From: a virus
Taxonomy: Duplodnaviria > Heunggongvirae > Uroviricota > Caudoviricetes
Virus record (IMG/VR): IMGVR_UViG_2703718778_000015
DNA length: 46,799 nucleotides
Strand: one strand, 5' to 3'
Shown in pieces: positions 8,450 through 41,895 of the stretch (the stretch's first letter is position 1; each line of letters begins with the position of its first letter). Made by a program: the position numbers and the translations under genes. The notes under the pieces are model-generated. The model did no database searches. It saw only the letters and a list, made by a program, of their open reading frames with translations, and was not told the origin of the DNA.

Positions 8450-11019
8450 CGCCCGCTCCCCGATAACAGACCGCCATCACGCAACTGCAGCCGGAGCTCA
8501 TCCTGCGCACCTTTACGGGCCATCTCATACACCGCTTTCATCAGCTGCGGCCCGGCCTGTCCGTTGATGCCGTCGTTCTGAATCACCACGTGATTGTTCT
8601 GATTAAAATTAATGCCTTCGGCCCGCCGCATCTGCGCCGGACTTCCGGCAGCACCCACATACCCCCCTTCCGCATAGCCCCGCATCAGGCGGTACAGGTT
8701 CCCGACACCAATCCGGCTGGTTGCCTCCTTCGTGAAGACAAACTCCCCGCGGTGGACAATCCCCGCTGGCTCATATTTGCCACCGGTTCCCGTAAATCCC
8801 CCGGTCGCGAAATGGAAGTTCGCCGCCGCAGCCTGAATGGCCGTCCCCGTGGAAGCGGATGCGCCACCACCGAAAGCACCACCAATGGCGCTGCCGATAC
8901 GCCCGACAATCCCCACCATCGCCTGCTTCAGAAAAATCTCTGTCAGCATGGAGAGCACGGAACGGGTGAAACCACGCCAGTTCTGTTCGCTGCCGGTCAG
9001 CATCGCTGCCATATTCTGTGCAATACCGTCAAAGGTCTGCGTGGCCGCGCTTTTAACCTGCGAAAAACTGTCCGTCGCACTTTCCGCCCACTCGCCCCAG
9101 CCGGACTTCAGACCCGCCATCCAGCTTCCACGAAGCTGCTCCTCCGCAGACCAGGTGTTCTTCAGTGCAGATGTGGCCTTCGCCAGCGCATCCGGATTAT
9201 CACCGTACACGTCACGAAGGCGCTGCTCTTCCGACTCCCGCTGCGCCTGACGGTCGGTGAGGCCGCGGGCTTTTGCGCTGATGGCGGCCTGCTTCGCGCT
9301 CTGCTGCTGTTCAAACCGCGCCGCCTGCTGTGCCAGCTCATTCAGCCGTTTCTGGTGTTCAACCTTGTCGCCCAGGTCAGCCAGCTGGCGTTTGTACTCC
9401 AGCGTCTCTTTCTCATGGGCCAGCAGGGATTTTTCCTGCTCAGATAACTGCCGTTTCGTGGCGGCCTCTTTCAGGACCACATACTGATTTTCCGCTTCCC
9501 ATAAATCCCGGCGCTGCTGGCTGATTTTCTCATTCACACCGCTGTGTTTTTCCAGCGTCCTGAGCTCGGTTTCAAGCGCCAGCATGGCTGCATGCGCCCG
9601 GTCTTCCTGGCGCTCACCGGCAGACACCTTCACACCGGACGGCTTTTTCTGCGTCGACTCATAATCCTTTTTTGCCGACGCCATCAGCGTGTTGTAATCC
9701 GCCTGCAGGATTTTCCCGTCTTTCAGGGCCTTATTCAGCTCTTCCTGCCGGGCGGTATATTTCTCCAGTGGCGTCAGCAGGCGCTCATACGCCTTCTGCG
9801 CCTCTCCGGTATACTTCAGCTGTGACGACTCACGCTCAGCCCTGTCCCTTGCCGCCAGTTCACCGGCTTTTTCCATATCCGACTGCAGCGTTGCCGCTGC
9901 CAGACCCAGACGGGCATTTTCCCGGTCATCCCATGCGCCCTGAAGGTTGGCCCGGAAAGAGGAGGTTTTACCGCGGCGCTGGCTCCGGCTCTGGTACCAC
10001 TGCCATTTTTTATCCGCCTCATCAAATGCCTTCTGCGCACTGGCGAGCATATCCGCTGAGGATTCCGGACGACCGATATCCAGAATGGCATCCCACATCG
10101 ATTTGAATGCCTTCCCTGTTTTATCCGCCCAGGTCTCCAGTGTTCCCATGTTTTCTTTCAGGCGACGGGTCTGCTCATCAAAGCCTTTCGTGGCGATATC
10201 GTTCGCCGCCTGTAAGGCCCCGGCCTCGTCTCCGGAACGCTGCAGTTGTGCAACATACGCAATCTGCTCTGCCGTCACGTTACGGAACTGGCGCGCCATC
10301 GCCATCAGTCCCGACGTCGGGTCAGTGGTCAGCTTCCCGAAGGCTTCAGCGACTTTATCCACCTCCACACCGGATGCAGACGCAAAACGCGCGACACTCT
10401 GGTTAATGGCATCAAACTGTTCACCACCACGCACACCGGCATTCACCAGGGCTGCCAGTGACTCTCTCGCCTGGTTAAACGTCAGCCCTGCTGCCTGCCC
10501 GGCTCTTGAGAGCGTCAGCATACGATCGGCAGTCAGTCCGGCCTGATTGCCGGAAAGGACCAGCGTTTTATTAAATTCTGAAAGCGTGGAATCCCCCTGG
10601 TACCAGGCGTACGCCAGCGCACCTGTCGCCACCGCCAGCGAGGTGACCCCGACCATCGGCAGGGTGATCGCACCGGCAAGCCCCCTGAACATGGGGATCA
10701 TCCCGCCGAAGGAGTCCTTCACCTGACCGCCCTGTTGCAGCAGGATGAGCCAGGGATTCTGACCACCGGCAAGCTGCGTGGCGATATCCGTAAACTGTGC
10801 GGGCAGGGTACGCATGGCTGCTTTATACTGCCCGACGGAAATCCCGGCTTTTTGTGCGGCCAGCGCCTGACGGTTCAGACTCTGCTCAACGGCACCGGCG
10901 GTTTTTCTGGCGTCGGTATCCAGTCCTGAAAAATGACGCCTTACCCGGCTCATCTGCTCATCGAAACGGACAGCATCCAGACTCAGGTCAATAACAAGAT
11001 CACCAACCGGCTGGGACAT
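8446..11019 (-). CDS. H: Tail length tape measure protein H
   Basis: 857 aa (lambda gpH is 853); coiled-coil centre, Gly-rich C-terminal region, position between G-T and M. Confidence 0.93.
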   Translation of the reverse strand: MSQPVGDLVIDLSLDAVRFDEQMSRVRRHFSGLDTDARKTAGAVEQSLNRQALAAQKAGISVGQYKAAMRTLPAQFTDIATQLAGGQNPWLILLQQGGQVKDSFGGMIPMFRGLAGAITLPMVGVTSLAVATGALAYAWYQGDSTLSEFNKTLVLSGNQAGLTADRMLTLSRAGQAAGLTFNQARESLAALVNAGVRGGEQFDAINQSVARFASASGVEVDKVAEAFGKLTTDPTSGLMAMARQFRNVTAEQIAYVAQLQRSGDEAGALQAANDIATKGFDEQTRRLKENMGTLETWADKTGKAFKSMWDAILDIGRPESSADMLASAQKAFDEADKKWQWYQSRSQRRGKTSSFRANLQGAWDDRENARLGLAAATLQSDMEKAGELAARDRAERESSQLKYTGEAQKAYERLLTPLEKYTARQEELNKALKDGKILQADYNTLMASAKKDYESTQKKPSGVKVSAGERQEDRAHAAMLALETELRTLEKHSGVNEKISQQRRDLWEAENQYVVLKEAATKRQLSEQEKSLLAHEKETLEYKRQLADLGDKVEHQKRLNELAQQAARFEQQQSAKQAAISAKARGLTDRQAQRESEEQRLRDVYGDNPDALAKATSALKNTWSAEEQLRGSWMAGLKSGWGEWAESATDSFSQVKSAATQTFDGIAQNMAAMLTGSEQNWRGFTRSVLSMLTEIFLKQAMVGIVGRIGSAIGGAFGGGASASTGTAIQAAAANFHFATGGFTGTGGKYEPAGIVHRGEFVFTKEATSRIGVGNLYRLMRGYAEGGYVGAAGSPAQMRRAEGINFNQNNHVVIQNDGINGQAGPQLMKAVYEMARKGAQDELRLQLRDGGLLSGSGR

Positions 11020-29372: not shown

Positions 29373-29553
29373 GAATCCTCCCGGTCGGGATAATGTTGTG
29401 AGTCAGATAAGGAGCGAGCTGAAGTCCGGAAGTTACAGGACAATGGCAGGAGGAAGACTACAGCCCGCAATACGAAAAAGGCCGCGCAGTTGCGCAGCCT
29501 TATGAATTCTGGTTAAAATCCATTCGATTATAAAAATGTATATCTCATGCTGT

Positions 29554-29580
29554 TGCCCGAACCCACTCGGGCTTTTTTTT
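29554..29580 (+). terminator. Intrinsic terminator on the plus strand, within a cluster of GC-rich stem-loops
   Basis: gcccgaacccactcgggc followed by T8; the adjacent hairpin gcccctccggagaggggc (about 29595-29612) has a U-rich tail on the minus strand, making the pair bidirectional. Confidence 0.5.
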
Positions 29581-29944
29581 GCCCACAAGAAAGCCCCTCC
29601 GGAGAGGGGCTAAAGCCGCGTATCTGTATCATCATGCACATGGTGCCGGGTGCCTCCCGGTGAGTTCAGCCCGGTGCCACTAAACCCGCGTCATTCTCGT
29701 TTTGATAATCAGAGATTATACCGTCACCAGTCGCCCCTCCGCTCAGGGGGATTCACCATGCCAGTTTCTTTTAACAAACTCCCCGCAAACCAGACAACAG
29801 TCAACCGCCTGAATTGTGAGGTATTTAAAAATTTCAACGGGTAACTGATACCCTGCTAATCGCCTGATGCTTTCTTTTTCAGCAACGGGAAAGCAACAAC
29901 CACCACACCCATCAGCCGCCCATTTACCACAAATAAAAAAGCCT

Positions 29945-32351: not shown

Positions 32352-32630
32352 TTACCTCCAGATACGTTGCTGGAATGTGCGGGATGGACGCGGTGGGCGC
32401 TCGGAGTAAGGAAGCCTGACGGAGATTATCCAGTGACGATAATCGAGGCTGAGGGCTTTCTTAATCTCGTATCCGTGTCTGCGGTAGCACTGAATTAGCC
32501 ACTCGGCCTGTTCTTCAGTGCATGGGGGATGCTGGAACCAGTCAGATTTGAAAGTGCGGGAACGCCGCCCGTGCCTGCTGGCAAAGACGGCAGAATCATC
32601 AGAATTGTGTAATTTGGTATCGTGCGCCAT
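32352..32630 (-). CDS. Hypothetical protein (about 92 aa)
   Basis: ORF from the internal Met (MAHDTKLH...) downstream of the hok terminator; stop overlaps the DUF968 start; weak RBS. Confidence 0.4.
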   Translation of the reverse strand: MAHDTKLHNSDDSAVFASRHGRRSRTFKSDWFQHPPCTEEQAEWLIQCYRRHGYEIKKALSLDYRHWIISVRLPYSERPPRPSRTFQQRIWR

Positions 32631-32702
32631 CGGTTGTCTCTGCTGGCGCAGCAGGTGCCAGTTGTTCAGGCTGGCGTGCGAATTGTAAACCAGAATGCCA
32701 GG

Positions 32703-32728
32703 AAAAAACAAAACCCGCCGAAGCGGGT
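32703..32728 (-). terminator. Intrinsic terminator downstream of hok
   Basis: Minus strand acccgcttcggcgggt followed by tttgtttttt. Confidence 0.65.
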
Positions 32729-32797
32729 TACGTGCGGGTGCGTTGAGGATGCCTGACACATCAGAGGTGGCGAGGGATTTCTCCCTCGCCGGGTCTC

Positions 32798-32953
32798 TTA
32801 CTCCTCAGGTTCGTAAACTGTGAAGACAGCGACCTCCGTCTGGCCGGTTCGGATTCGTACCTCGCAGAGGTCTTTCCTCGTTACCAGTGCCGTCACTATG
32901 ACGGTTAAACAGATGACGATCAGGGCGATTAACATCGCCTTTTGCTGCTTCAT
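32798..32953 (-). CDS. hok: Hok-family type I toxin (small membrane peptide)
   Basis: 51 aa, MKQQKAMLIALIVICLTVIVTALVTRKDLCEVRIRTGQTEVAVFTVYEPEE, one residue from HokD/RelF as remembered; strong AAGGAGAAG RBS. Confidence 0.9.
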   Translation of the reverse strand: MKQQKAMLIALIVICLTVIVTALVTRKDLCEVRIRTGQTEVAVFTVYEPEE

Positions 32954-33244
32954 AGCCTGCTTCTCCTTGCCTTTCGGCACGTAAGAGGCTAACCTAGATT
33001 TGCCGTTCATAGATTGAGCCTCAGATTAATGTTAAGCGTCTTGCAGGACGCGTAATGTTAACTGGGGCTTTTCTCTATCTGCCTTTTGGTATTCATGCCT
33101 GAGACAGATAGCCTCAAGCACCCGCAGCAATTCTACTTAACTATCCTTTCCCCGCAAATCGTTTTTATCCCCAGCGACAAATCGAATACACCACCAGCGC
33201 CACCGCCATTGCGATCCCTACCGTTGTGAATGCCTCAGGCCAGG

Positions 33245-33589
33245 TCATCGTAAAACATCCTCTGCGCTTATCAGTCCGTTTCGCTTCAGGTAGTCCATCG
33301 CCTTACCCGGCAATTTACAGTCCGGCTTCGTTTTCCTCAGTTGCCAGGTTAACTGCTTTACCAGCATGGTTAACTCGTCGACCAGACGCTGATGTCCCAC
33401 TGGTTTGTATTCATGCAATTTACCGGCTGGCTCTGCTGCCAGCGATGCCAGTGCGATTTCCAGAACAGCAATATCCATCTTATATGTGCGGATGATGTCA
33501 TGGTCGTTTGTGCCCGGTATGCACAGTCTCTGTGCTTCAATAGTCTCCTCTGCGTGAGCTATTAACTGCTCTCTGGTAAAAGTGGTCAT
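33245..33589 (-). CDS. Hypothetical protein (114 aa), paralogous to the ORF at 34103-34528
   Basis: N-terminal segment [15 protein letters not shown]...[12 protein letters not shown] resembles MTELTKEQLIEEAKL...FKIALTSLEAEP of the neighbouring ORF. Confidence 0.5.
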
Positions 33590-41387: not shown

Positions 41388-41895
41388 TGCTTAATGAATC
41401 CTTAAAACTGTGGTGATTTTAAGGATACCACCTCGCCTGACGTGGTTAAAAGCAGGCACACAACACGAAAGCGCACGGCGAGGTTTCTGGTTCATAGATG
41501 GCTTGTCGTTAAATTTTCGTCGACCGTGCGCTCCCGGTTGTGGCAATCCGCGAAACGGCGCGGCGGTAAGTATGGCGGGGGTACTCTTCTCCCCCTGTGG
41601 AGCACCGGGTTGTCAGGTTGACCATACGCTTAAGAGACAACCACGCTGCAACGCCCTCTGTTATCCATTTTCTGGTGACGTTTGGCGGTATCAGTTTTAC
41701 TCCGTGACTGCTCTGCCGCCCTTTTTAAAGTGAATTTTGTGATGTGGTGAATGCGGCTGAGCGCACGCGGAACAGTTAAAACCAAAAACAGTGTTATGGG
41801 TGGATTCTCTGTATCCGGCGTTAATTGTTAACTGGTTAACGTCACCTGGAGGCACCAGGCACCGCATCACAAAATTCATTGTTGAGGACGCGATA

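What the first reader, a model, noticed from the sequence alone, without database searches (positions are those of the whole stretch)
32631..33244. hok-type type I toxin with long structured leader and terminator in the nin region; antisense Sok-like RNA expected but not mapped
A 51-aa Hok peptide differing by one residue from HokD/RelF as remembered is encoded with a strong RBS, about 290 nt of upstream leader and a strong downstream terminator. In hok/sok systems a short antisense RNA overlaps the leader/mok start; it should lie on the plus strand around 32950-33080, but I could not identify a convincing promoter by eye. Whether the locus is active or a decayed remnant cannot be judged from sequence alone.
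Basis: partly seen in the sequence, partly recalled or inferred. Interest (0 to 1): 0.45.

Follow-up and report, generated by a model that had tools for sequence, protein, structure and literature searches.

The report
Complete prophage hok/mok/sok toxin module

Summary
The Hok ORF, its ribosome-binding site and the terminator are real. The "290-nt leader" is not: the leader is 170 nt (33123-32954). The rest of the interval holds the hok promoter and a separate conserved 27-codon ORF.

The locus is a complete hok/mok/sok type I toxin-antitoxin module:
- hok promoter with -10 TAGAAT;
- 5' tac element paired with a 3' fbi element;
- anti-SD (ucb), mok SD and dcb boxes;
- a 70-codon in-frame mok;
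- Hok, 51 aa, 50/51 identical to K-12 HokD;
- a 3' protective hairpin and a terminator.

Sok maps by homology to annotated sokW (phage 933W) and to K-12 sokC, sokB and sokE. It starts at 33002 (+) and ends at 33072-33078. Its promoter, TTGCCT-17-TAACCT at 32967-32995, lies in a stretch identical to that of sokW, whose -10 was shown by mutagenesis to be needed for antitoxin activity.

K-12 hokD is a 5'-truncated copy of this module; the window holds the full form. The same 614 bases occur at 100% identity in E. coli chromosomes, where the peptide is annotated hokD. The module is 93% identical to hokW/mokW/sokW of 933W/Sp5, which was characterised experimentally in 2021. Verdict: already known, probably active, low interest.

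One by-product is worth a look. The 22 nt that form the Sok 5' tail and its target loop are hypervariable among otherwise near-identical prophage copies.

The parts
33130..33157 (-). Putative hok/mok mRNA promoter: -35 TTGCGG (33157-33152), 16-nt spacer, -10 TAGAAT (33135-33130).
   Evidence: Read from the sequence. The -10 aligns with TATAAT of K-12 hokC and is nearly invariant in 63 related phage loci. It is identical in 933W. The consensus scan did not list it because it matches only 8 of 12 positions. Not mapped experimentally.
32703..33123 (-). Full-length hok/mok mRNA, about 419 nt: 170-nt leader, hok ORF and 3' UTR.
   Evidence: The 5' end is taken from the start of the Rfam model and the tac element. 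The 3' end is the terminator. The fold has z = -7.1, with the 5' end paired to the 3' UTR.
33112..33123 (-). tac (translational activator element), GGGTGCTTGAGG, at the mRNA 5' end.
   Evidence: It pairs with fbi in the full-length MFE structure; the duplex energy is -21.5 kcal/mol. All 12 pairs are kept in all 64 unique variants; the substitutions seen only create G-U pairs or hit the bulged base.
33064..33070 (-). ucb / anti-SD box, AAGCCCC.
   Evidence: It pairs with the mok SD in the full-length fold and with tac in the open form. This helix is 99.4% paired across 49 leaders.
32798..33010 (-). mok-like ORF: 70 codons in frame with hok, ATG at 33010, SD GAGG at 33022-33019.
   Evidence: ORF list and translation. 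It is 62/70 identical to MokW of 933W. K-12 mokC has the same in-frame layout.
32985..33022 (-). Sok-target hairpin: the mok SD paired with dcb (GCCTC, 32989-32985), with the mok AUG in the stem.
   Evidence: Rfam consensus structure, constrained fold and hairpin folds of 10 alleles at -13 to -15 kcal/mol.
32996..33017 (-). Hypervariable segment: the Sok 5' tail and its target loop, around mok codons 2-5.
   Evidence: Mean pairwise diversity is 0.32, against 0.03-0.05 in the rest of the leader. Eighteen alleles occur in 80 IMG/VR loci. In the leader, differences from 933W hokW cluster here.
32798..32953 (-). hok toxin gene, 51 aa, with SD AAGGAG at 32968-32963.
   Evidence: Pfam PF01848 at 78.6 bits; PHROG 251 'MokW-like host killing'; 98% identical to K-12 HokD and 92% to HokW.
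32769..32790 (-). 3' UTR hairpin GGCGAGGGAGAAATCCCTCGCC, the presumed stop for 3' exonucleolytic trimming.
   Evidence: Present in both folds. Its position matches the R1 hairpin whose disruption lowers mRNA stability (PMC9841398). The role here is inferred.
32736..32748 (-). fbi (fold-back inhibition element), CCTCAACGCACCC, complementary to tac with one bulged C.
   Evidence: K-12 hokB carries compensating changes on both sides (GCCUGAGA / UCUCAUGGC).
32703..32729 (-). Intrinsic terminator: stem AACCCGCTTCGGCGGGTT followed by TTGTTTTTT.
   Evidence: Terminator scan. Homology among related loci ends inside the T-run.
32967..32995 (+). Sok promoter: -35 TTGCCT (overlapping the hok SD), 17-nt spacer, -10 TAACCT.
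   Evidence: Read from the sequence. The stretch is identical to 933W/Sp5 sokW. In that system, replacing the -10 (primers YO-421/422) abolished antitoxin activity (PMC8621323). The layout matches the R1-like locus, TTGCGC-17-TATCCT. It matches only 7 of 12 consensus positions and was not listed by the scan.
33002..33078 (+). Sok-like antisense RNA, 71-77 nt: a 14-nt single-stranded 5' tail, one long hairpin, then a U-rich 3' end at 33072-33078.
   Evidence: The annotated K-12 sokC, sokB and sokE map to 33002-33077/33078. The annotated 933W sokW (71 nt) maps to 33002-33072. Folds: -30 kcal/mol with z = -5.6 for the 71-nt form and -33 kcal/mol with z = -5.8 for the 77-nt form. Expression was not tested here.

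Best explanation
The interval holds one complete hok/mok/sok type I toxin-antitoxin cassette of the hokW/hokD type. It sits in the early-right (nin-equivalent) region of a lambdoid prophage and is co-oriented with the genes that lead to Q.

Proposed mechanism, by homology with R1 hok/sok and Sp5 hokW-sokW:
1. A constitutive promoter (-10 at 33135-33130) makes a stable mRNA of about 419 nt.
2. In that mRNA the 5' tac pairs with the 3' fbi. This holds the anti-SD (ucb) on the mok SD, so neither mok nor hok is translated and Sok cannot bind.
3. Slow 3' trimming back to the hairpin at 32790-32769 removes fbi.
4. tac then pairs with ucb, and the mok SD moves into the SD/dcb target hairpin.
5. In that form either Sok binds or ribosomes translate mok. 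Sok is a short-lived RNA of 71-77 nt made from TTGCCT-17-TAACCT and starting at 33002 (+). Its 14-nt 5' tail binds first, and RNase III cleaves the duplex. If ribosomes win, hok is translated by coupling to mok.
6. When Sok synthesis stops, Hok inserts into the inner membrane and depolarises or kills the cell.

Likely role, by analogy with hokW-sokW: Sok is lost on prophage induction, Hok appears before holin and endolysin, and phage release is helped.

Shown here: every sequence element, the in-silico conformational switch, and homology to annotated and tested loci.
Inferred: transcription of both RNAs, 3' processing, toxicity and the biological role.
For: Family membership:
- Pfam HOK_GEF, E 2.6e-22.
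- Rfam RF01794, 112.4 bits against a gathering score of 59, model positions 1-157 of 157.

RNA structure:
- The full-length fold closes tac on fbi and ucb on the mok SD, z = -7.1.
- In the full-length RNA the closed form beats the open form by 10.4 kcal/mol (11.6 for the R1-like control). After 3' truncation the open form is within 0.5 kcal/mol of the MFE (2.0 for the control).
- tac-fbi keeps 12/12 pairs in 64 unique variants.
- The leader structure is 90.5% paired, against 30-52% for slid controls. Twelve pairs change on both sides, against 3.1 in shuffles.

Sok:
- Its coordinates come from four annotated homologues.
- The Sok promoter, dcb, the hok SD and the first 91 bases of the hok ORF are identical to 933W hokW/sokW.
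- For Sp5 hokW-sokW, published work shows toxicity, Sok-promoter dependence, both RNAs on northern blots, loss of Sok with HokW production on induction, and twofold phage release (PMC8621323).

Peptide: 98% identical to HokD, which is reported toxic (bioRxiv 10.1101/2025.08.07.668861).

Occurrence: the module is 100% identical in E. coli chromosomes, and 72 of 80 IMG/VR phage loci carry the full leader.
Against: - No expression data for this copy.
- Both promoters are weak by consensus (8/12 and 7/12), and the scan listed none.
- The unconstrained MFE of the truncated mRNA gives the 5' metastable hairpin, not the open form. The same is true of the R1 control.
- This allele's target loop has no unpaired YUNR U-turn motif, unlike R1-like, hokC, hokB and the hokW allele.
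- Chromosomal hok loci tested earlier (hokA, hokB, hokC) did not mediate post-segregational killing.
- The position differs from hokW, which lies at the far right end of the 933W map, so the role need not be the same.
- The 3' end differs too: 933W lacks this terminator.
Confidence: 0.88

Rival explanations
1. The locus is a decayed, inactive remnant, like K-12 hokD, hokA, hokC and hokE. It would be carried passively and never make Hok.
For: K-12 copies are disrupted by IS elements or truncated. Earlier work found tested chromosomal hok loci inactive for post-segregational killing. The promoter scan lists no promoter. This allele has no YUNR motif in the target loop.
Against: Every element is intact. 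tac-fbi is perfectly maintained across 64 variants, with only pair-preserving changes. The leader outside the recognition segment has diversity 0.03-0.05, against 0.43-0.48 in the flanks. The Sok promoter and hok translation-initiation stretch is identical to active hokW-sokW (PMC8621323). This allele alone is present in 1631 of 5426 complete E. coli genomes.
Confidence: 0.06
2. The cassette is active, but its role is prophage maintenance by post-segregational-type killing. Cells that lose or excise the prophage without lysing would lose the unstable Sok and be killed by the stable hok mRNA.
For: This is the established role of R1 hok/sok. The depositors of 933W annotated hokW as 'prophage maintenance'. 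The cassette has its own promoters and terminator and moves as a discrete 430-nt module.
Against: It has not been tested for any prophage copy. Chromosomal hok loci tested earlier did not give post-segregational killing. Deleting hokW-sokW had no reported effect on uninduced lysogens. This role is compatible with the lysis-assist role rather than exclusive of it.
Confidence: 0.25
3. The cassette is active as an abortive-infection or exclusion device. A superinfecting lytic phage shuts off host transcription, Sok decays, and Hok kills the cell early, which protects the lysogen population.
For: [quoted passage not shown]
Against: The same survey found no enrichment of hok near defence systems. 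The T4 effect was modest and needed high copy number. Nothing in the window bears on this role.
Confidence: 0.15

Closest known systems
hokW / mokW / sokW of Stx2 phages 933W and Sp5 (VT2-Sakai)
   Same: - 93% nucleotide identity over 407 nt.
- The hok -10, tac, ucb, the extended Sok hairpin, the Sok promoter, dcb, the hok SD and fbi are all identical.
- Hok is 47/51 and Mok 62/70 identical.
- The 70-codon mok is in frame with hok in both.
- The annotated 5' end of sokW maps exactly to 33002.
- Both lie in a lambdoid prophage, and a 27-aa ORF precedes both.
   Different: - The recognition segment after the mok ATG differs (AACGGCAAATC here, CTGAACACATG in 933W), and the YUNR motif is missing here.
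- Four C-terminal Hok residues differ.
- 933W lacks the terminator hairpin; homology ends just after fbi.
- hokW lies at the right end of the phage map, next to L0136-L0141, not between the replication genes and Q.
hokD (relF) of the E. coli K-12 Qin prophage
   Same: The Hok peptide is 50/51 identical. The hok SD, ORF, 3' hairpin, fbi and terminator are the same. The neighbourhood is of the same type: upstream of a DUF968/YdfU gene and a Q-like antiterminator. PGAP names the window's peptide HokD.
   Different: In K-12, homology starts only about 15-17 nt upstream of the hok ATG, and relBE lies directly upstream. So tac, ucb, the mok start, the Sok RNA and the Sok -10 are all missing. The window has the full module. 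The next gene downstream is not related to K-12 rem.
hok/mok/sok (parB) of plasmid R1, the family paradigm
   Same: The same order of elements and the same two-state RNA switch, with comparable computed energies. The Sok promoter overlaps the hok SD in the same layout. Pfam and Rfam place both in one family.
   Different: Hok is only 40% identical. mok is in frame with hok here and out of frame in R1. The Sok hairpin is longer here. R1 is on a plasmid, this copy on a prophage. The tac/fbi sequences differ with compensating changes.
hokC / mokC / sokC (gef) of E. coli K-12
   Same: The tac and leader are nearly identical over the first 60 nt or so, mok is in frame, and the annotated Sok starts at the homologous position.
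   Different: hokC in K-12 has IS186 19 nt downstream of the stop codon, so fbi is lost. SokC lacks the 18-nt extension of the hairpin. The hokC recognition loop matches the 933W allele, not the window's.

Membership tests
hok/mok/sok type I toxin-antitoxin family | Small Hok/Gef-type membrane peptide of about 50 aa. | tested here: met
   Pfam PF01848 at 78.6 bits (cut-off 22), profile positions 1-42 of 42; PHROG 251.
hok/mok/sok type I toxin-antitoxin family | The leader RNA fits the family covariance model in sequence and structure. | tested here: met
   Rfam RF01794 at 112.4 bits (gathering score 59), full-length match at 32948-33123 (-). Note that the model matches the hok-mRNA strand, not the Sok strand.
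hok/mok/sok type I toxin-antitoxin family | A mok reading frame with its own SD, starting upstream of hok and overlapping it. | tested here: met
   A 70-codon ORF from 33010, with GAGG 8 nt upstream. Translational coupling itself cannot be tested with these tools.
hok/mok/sok type I toxin-antitoxin family | Long-range 5'-3' pairing (tac/fbi) that locks the full-length mRNA. | tested here: met
   Present in the MFE structure. Twelve of 12 pairs are kept in 64 variants, and hokB shows compensating changes.
hok/mok/sok type I toxin-antitoxin family | Conformational switch: ucb on the mok SD in the full-length RNA; tac/ucb plus SD/dcb after 3' truncation. | tested here: met
   The open form costs 10.4 kcal/mol in the full-length RNA and 0.5 kcal/mol in the truncated RNA. 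The R1-like control gives 11.6 and 2.0. This is computation only.
hok/mok/sok type I toxin-antitoxin family | A cis-encoded antisense Sok with its own promoter, complementary to the mok translation-initiation region. | tested here: met
   Positional homology to annotated sokW, sokC, sokB and sokE. The promoter is identical to the mutationally tested sokW promoter. The predicted RNA has a tail-plus-hairpin shape. Transcription of this copy was not tested.
hok/mok/sok type I toxin-antitoxin family | A YUNR (U-turn) motif in the Sok-target loop. This is an accessory feature that speeds binding. | tested here: not met
   No unpaired YUNR in the loop of this allele, whereas it is present in R1-like, hokC, hokB, the hokW allele and others.
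hok/mok/sok type I toxin-antitoxin family | Hok is toxic, Sok neutralises it, and the mRNA is processed at the 3' end. | not testable with these tools
   Support comes only from relatives: HokD is reported toxic, and HokW/sokW was tested.
hokD (relF) locus as defined in E. coli K-12 | HokD peptide sequence. | tested here: met
   50/51 identical.
hokD (relF) locus as defined in E. coli K-12 | hok as the third gene of the relBE operon, with no mok or sok leader of its own. | tested here: not met
   The window has the complete leader and no relBE. K-12 homology begins about 15-17 nt before the ATG.
hokW-sokW of 933W/Sp5 | The same cassette in sequence. | tested here: met
   93% identity over 407 nt. 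The differences cluster in the recognition segment, the Hok C-terminus and the 3' end.
hokW-sokW of 933W/Sp5 | The same position in the phage genome. | tested here: not met
   In 933W the locus is at 58.4-58.8 kb of 61.7 kb, beside L0136-L0141. Here it lies between the nin-type genes and DUF968/RusA/Q.

The most novel reading that the evidence does not exclude
The 22 nt that encode the Sok 5' tail and its target loop (32996-33017) may act as a swappable specificity cassette under diversifying selection.

The reasoning: Hok is released when a prophage's own Sok disappears on induction. A co-resident prophage or chromosomal locus with the same Sok allele would supply Sok in trans and block that release. 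Prophage hok/sok modules would therefore be driven to mutually orthogonal Sok alleles, much as lambdoid phages diversify their immunity regions.

What the data show:
- Eighteen block-substituted alleles sit in an otherwise 95-97% identical leader, and all of them keep the hairpin.
- The hokW allele shares its loop with chromosomal hokC; the window's allele does not.
- Carrier genomes hold on average only 1.05 copies of the window's allele.
Probability: 0.25. Interest if true: 0.5.

Novelty: already known. Interest (0 to 1): 0.15.

Why it matters
For annotation. RefSeq (PGAP) marks only a 'hokD' CDS at this locus, and the mok frame, the Sok RNA and the RNA switch elements go unmarked. The Rfam 'sok' hit falls on the hok-mRNA strand and could be read as an antisense gene on the wrong strand. 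The element map given here can be transferred to the roughly 1600 complete E. coli genomes that carry exactly this allele.

For biology. The window shows the intact form of the module of which the textbook K-12 hokD/relF is a truncated remnant. It adds nothing new about the mechanism. The only lead beyond the known is the sharply localised hypervariability of the Sok recognition segment. If this reflects selection against cross-talk between co-resident prophages, it would extend the idea of immunity specificity to type I antitoxins.

Tried and rejected
- **290-nt leader.** Rejected. The family model, the conserved -10 and the homology break put the 5' end at 33123, and 33165-33248 is a separate conserved ORF.
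- **Consensus promoter scan of 32500-33400.** No site on either strand. Both promoters were therefore placed by homology only.
- **Unconstrained MFE of the 3'-truncated mRNA.** It gives the 5' metastable hairpin with the mok SD still closed. The R1-like control behaves the same way. Plain MFE is thus uninformative, and constrained folds were used instead. A first constrained run used mis-indexed pairs and is discarded.
- **Sub-threshold Rfam matches in the 3' UTR and leader.** isrK scored 27.8 bits against a gathering score of 50; ceN48, rsmX and CsrC were weaker. All were treated as chance.
- **Downstream 92-aa ORF (32352-32630) as a Rem homologue.** No similarity to K-12 Rem and no Pfam family. 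It matches only PHROG 1212, of unknown function.
- **Anti-cross-talk test, same-genome loci.** Two same-genome pairs among the IMG/VR loci gave one pair with different alleles and one with the same allele.
- **Anti-cross-talk test, genome-wide counts.** The window's allele occurs at 1715 places in 1631 genomes. The conserved leader occurs at 9857 places in 4516 genomes. That is a mild deficit of same-allele pairs against a crude random expectation. It is confounded by clonality and by prophage immunity, so the result is inconclusive.
- **Second hok locus in the window.** None found.

Full report
**What is in the sequence.**
On the minus strand there is a 51-codon ORF at 32798-32953. A 70-codon ORF in the same frame starts at 33010.
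- The 51-aa peptide matches Pfam HOK_GEF over the whole profile (78.6 bits, E 2.6e-22) and PHROG 251 'MokW-like host killing'.
- AAGGAG lies 10 nt before the ATG.
- An intrinsic terminator (32729-32712 plus a T-run) follows the ORF.

So the core observation is correct.

**The leader is 170 nt, not 290.**
- Rfam RF01794 matches 32948-33123 (-) end to end at 112 bits, against a gathering score of 59. Its first bases, GGGUGCUUGA, are the family's 5' tac element.
- A -10-like TAGAAT sits 7 nt upstream of 33123. It aligns with TATAAT of K-12 hokC.
- In 63 distinct related phage loci, similarity collapses just upstream of this -10 and again inside the terminator T-run. The cassette is therefore a discrete module of about 430 nt.
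Its ATG overlaps the stop of the upstream gene, and it is conserved in 90 phage records.

**Element map** (verified against the sequence; minus strand unless stated).

| Element | Sequence | Coordinates |
|---|---|---|
| hok -35 | TTGCGG | 33157-33152 |
| hok -10 | TAGAAT | 33135-33130 |
| tac | GGGTGCTTGAGG | 33123-33112 |
| ucb / anti-SD | AAGCCCC | 33070-33064 |
| mok SD | GAGG | 33022-33019 |
| mok ATG | ATG | 33010 |
| dcb | GCCTC | 32989-32985 |
| hok SD | AAGGAG | 32968-32963 |
| hok ORF | | 32953-32798 |
| 3' hairpin | | 32790-32769 |
| fbi | CCTCAACGCACCC | 32748-32736 |
| terminator | | 32729-32703 |
| Sok -35 (+ strand) | TTGCCT | 32967-32972 |
| Sok -10 (+ strand) | TAACCT, after a 17-nt spacer | 32990-32995 |
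| Sok start (+ strand) | | 33002 |

**Where Sok is.**
- Aligning the locus with K-12 hokC, hokB and hokE and transferring their annotated Sok RNAs gives 33002-33077/33078 (+) in all three cases.
- Phage 933W carries an annotated sokW (71 nt) in a cassette 93% identical to this one. It transfers to 33002-33072.
- The predicted RNA has a 14-nt single-stranded 5' tail and one long hairpin, followed by a U-rich stretch (-30 kcal/mol, z = -5.6).
- Its hairpin is about 18 nt longer than in SokB, SokC and SokE.
- The Rfam family named 'sok' is modelled on the hok-mRNA strand. Its hit marks the leader, not the antisense gene.

**Is it intact or a remnant?**
All family elements are present, and they behave as in the paradigm.
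- The full-length RNA (33123-32705) folds with tac on fbi and ucb on the mok SD. The energy is -169.4 kcal/mol and z = -7.1.
- Forcing the tac/ucb ('open') pairing costs 10.4 kcal/mol in the full-length RNA. It costs only 0.5 kcal/mol once the 3' 55 nt are removed.
- An R1-like locus treated the same way gives 11.6 and 2.0 kcal/mol.
- In the open form the mok SD pairs with dcb, as described for R1 (PMC9841398).
- tac-fbi keeps 12 of 12 pairs in all 64 unique variants. The few substitutions create G-U pairs or hit the bulged base, and hokB shows compensating changes.
- Over 49 leaders the open structure is 90.5% paired, against 30-52% for slid controls. Twelve pairs change on both sides, against 3.1 in shuffles. 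Two caveats apply: the structure was derived from the window's own sequence, and most rows are close relatives.

By contrast, K-12 hokD is similar to the window only from about 15-17 nt upstream of the hok ATG, with relE directly upstream. It has lost tac, ucb, the mok start, Sok and the Sok -10. The window therefore holds the complete form of the module, and the K-12 'reference' is the remnant.

**Experimental support from the closest relative.**
Takada et al. 2021 (PMC8621323) studied hokW-sokW of Sp5. They report that:
- HokW is toxic;
- sokW made from its own promoter protects the cell;
- replacing the -10 region (primers YO-421/422 replace TAGGTTA, the complement of TAACCTA) abolishes protection;
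- both RNAs are seen in uninduced lysogens;
- sokW disappears and HokW appears, in a RecA-dependent way, on prophage induction, about 1 h before endolysin;
- deleting the locus delays growth arrest by about 40 min and halves phage release.

From the -10 of Sok through dcb, the -35, the hok SD and the first 91 bases of the hok ORF, the window is identical to 933W. This makes an active Sok promoter and an active hok translation-initiation region likely here too.

**Differences from hokW.**
- The 11 nt after the mok ATG differ (AACGGCAAATC here, CTGAACACATG in 933W).
- Four C-terminal Hok residues differ.
- The window has a terminator hairpin that 933W lacks.
- The genomic position differs.

**Context.**
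The window is a lambdoid prophage read on the minus strand.
- Upstream of hok lie replication-type and Ea22-type genes.
- Downstream lie a 92-aa protein of unknown function, a DUF968/HNH protein (YdfU-like), RusA and a Q-like antiterminator.
- This is the same relative place as hokD in Qin.
- hok is co-oriented with early-right transcription. Its terminator therefore lies on the path to Q, and Sok is transcribed against that flow. This could be one route to Sok loss on induction, but that is inference only.

**How common it is.**
- The 614-nt interval is 100% identical in four E. coli chromosomes, where PGAP annotates only the CDS, as 'hokD'.
- The conserved leader occurs at 9857 places in 4516 of 5426 complete genomes.
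- This exact recognition allele occurs in 1631 genomes.
- 102 phage records carry the module under names such as hokW/mokW/sokW, 'host killer protein', 'gef' and 'RelF'.
- Enrichment of hok in prophages has been reported (bioRxiv 10.1101/2025.08.07.668861).

The finding is thus an already known element.

**By-product: a hypervariable segment.**
- Among 64 unique sequences chosen only for Hok identity of at least 98%, nucleotide diversity is 0.03-0.05 along the leader. It rises to 0.32 in the 22 nt at 32996-33017, close to the 0.43-0.48 of unrelated flanks.
- This segment is the Sok 5' tail and its target loop.
- Eighteen alleles occur in 80 loci. They differ by blocks of bases, and all still form the SD/dcb hairpin at -13 to -15 kcal/mol.
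- One allele family changes the mok frame. There mok is 19 codons long and ends in a TGA that overlaps the hok ATG.
- Most alleles, like R1-like, hokC and hokB, have an unpaired YUNR motif just after the mok AUG. The window's allele and the commonest allele do not.
- The 2026 survey states that it did not analyse Sok and Mok, and I found no description of this pattern in the papers I searched.
- A selective reading, orthogonality between co-resident modules, is possible. My two crude tests were inconclusive.

**Verdict.**
- Observation: partly confirmed. The leader length was wrong.
- Interpretation: supported.
- The missing Sok is now mapped, and the locus is judged intact and probably active.
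- Novelty: already known.
- Interest: low.

Noticed in passing
window 33165-33248 (-): A 27-codon hydrophobic ORF ([27 protein letters not shown]). Its ATG overlaps the TGA of the upstream 114-aa gene. It is conserved in 90 phage records, mostly unannotated or 'hypothetical'. It is present in 29 of 80 IMG/VR hok loci, in 18 of them ending 44 nt before tac, and it also precedes hokW in Sp5/933W. It matches no Pfam or PHROG family. It may travel with the hok module.
   Followed up: partly
window 32996-33017 (-); loci L007-L086: The Sok 5' tail and target loop form a sharply bounded hypervariable block (diversity 0.32 against 0.03-0.05 nearby). Eighteen alleles occur, and all keep the hairpin.
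   Followed up: partly
window 32985-33022 (-): This allele's Sok-target loop lacks the unpaired YUNR (U-turn) motif. The motif is present at the same place in R1-like, hokC, hokB, the 933W hokW allele and several others.
   Followed up: partly
L075:1445-1504 and related loci (12 of 80): An alternative mok architecture. A net -1 indel puts mok out of frame, so it is 19 codons long and stops at a TGA that overlaps the hok ATG (ATGA), instead of the 70-codon in-frame mok.
   Followed up: yes
window 32948-33123: Rfam family RF01794, named 'sok antitoxin', matches the strand of the hok mRNA leader from tac to the hok AUG, not the Sok strand. A naive reading would annotate a 176-nt 'sok' on the wrong strand.
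   Followed up: yes
L002:4276-4460 (K-12 Qin) versus window 32954-33123: K-12 hokD shares the module only from about 15-17 nt upstream of the hok ATG, and the relE stop region replaces the leader. hokD/relF is thus a 5'-truncated copy of a prophage hokW-type module.
   Followed up: yes
window 32813-32821 (-): The Tyr46 codon sits in UUUACGAAC, so the UACG context is kept. Codon 46 is the one said to be A-to-I edited to Cys in hokC, hokD and hokE. The single difference from K-12 HokD (A45V, GCU to GUU) is the base triplet directly 5' of that codon. HokW has CUACGAA here. The effect on editing is unknown.
   Followed up: no
window 33037-33057; loci L061, L063: The Sok hairpin, and the matching leader hairpin, is about 18 nt longer than in K-12 SokB, SokC and SokE. 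At least four of the 80 IMG/VR loci, among them L061 and L063, have the short form, with a different recognition allele.
   Followed up: partly
window 29525-29790: Downstream of the Q-like gene, Rfam finds STnc100 (29581-29790, -, 152 bits) and the anti-sRNA AsxR (29525-29577, +, 63 bits, exactly at the gathering score). This is the arrangement known from Stx phages, but ARAGORN finds no tRNA gene in the window. stx genes were not searched for.
   Followed up: no
window 41670-41721 (+): A DicF sRNA match (76.7 bits against a gathering score of 48) in the early-left region of the prophage.
   Followed up: no
L089:1906-1960 (933W) versus window 32703-32735: Homology between the 933W hokW module and the window ends a few bases after fbi. 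933W lacks the window's terminator hairpin, so the two copies must end their mRNAs differently.
   Followed up: no
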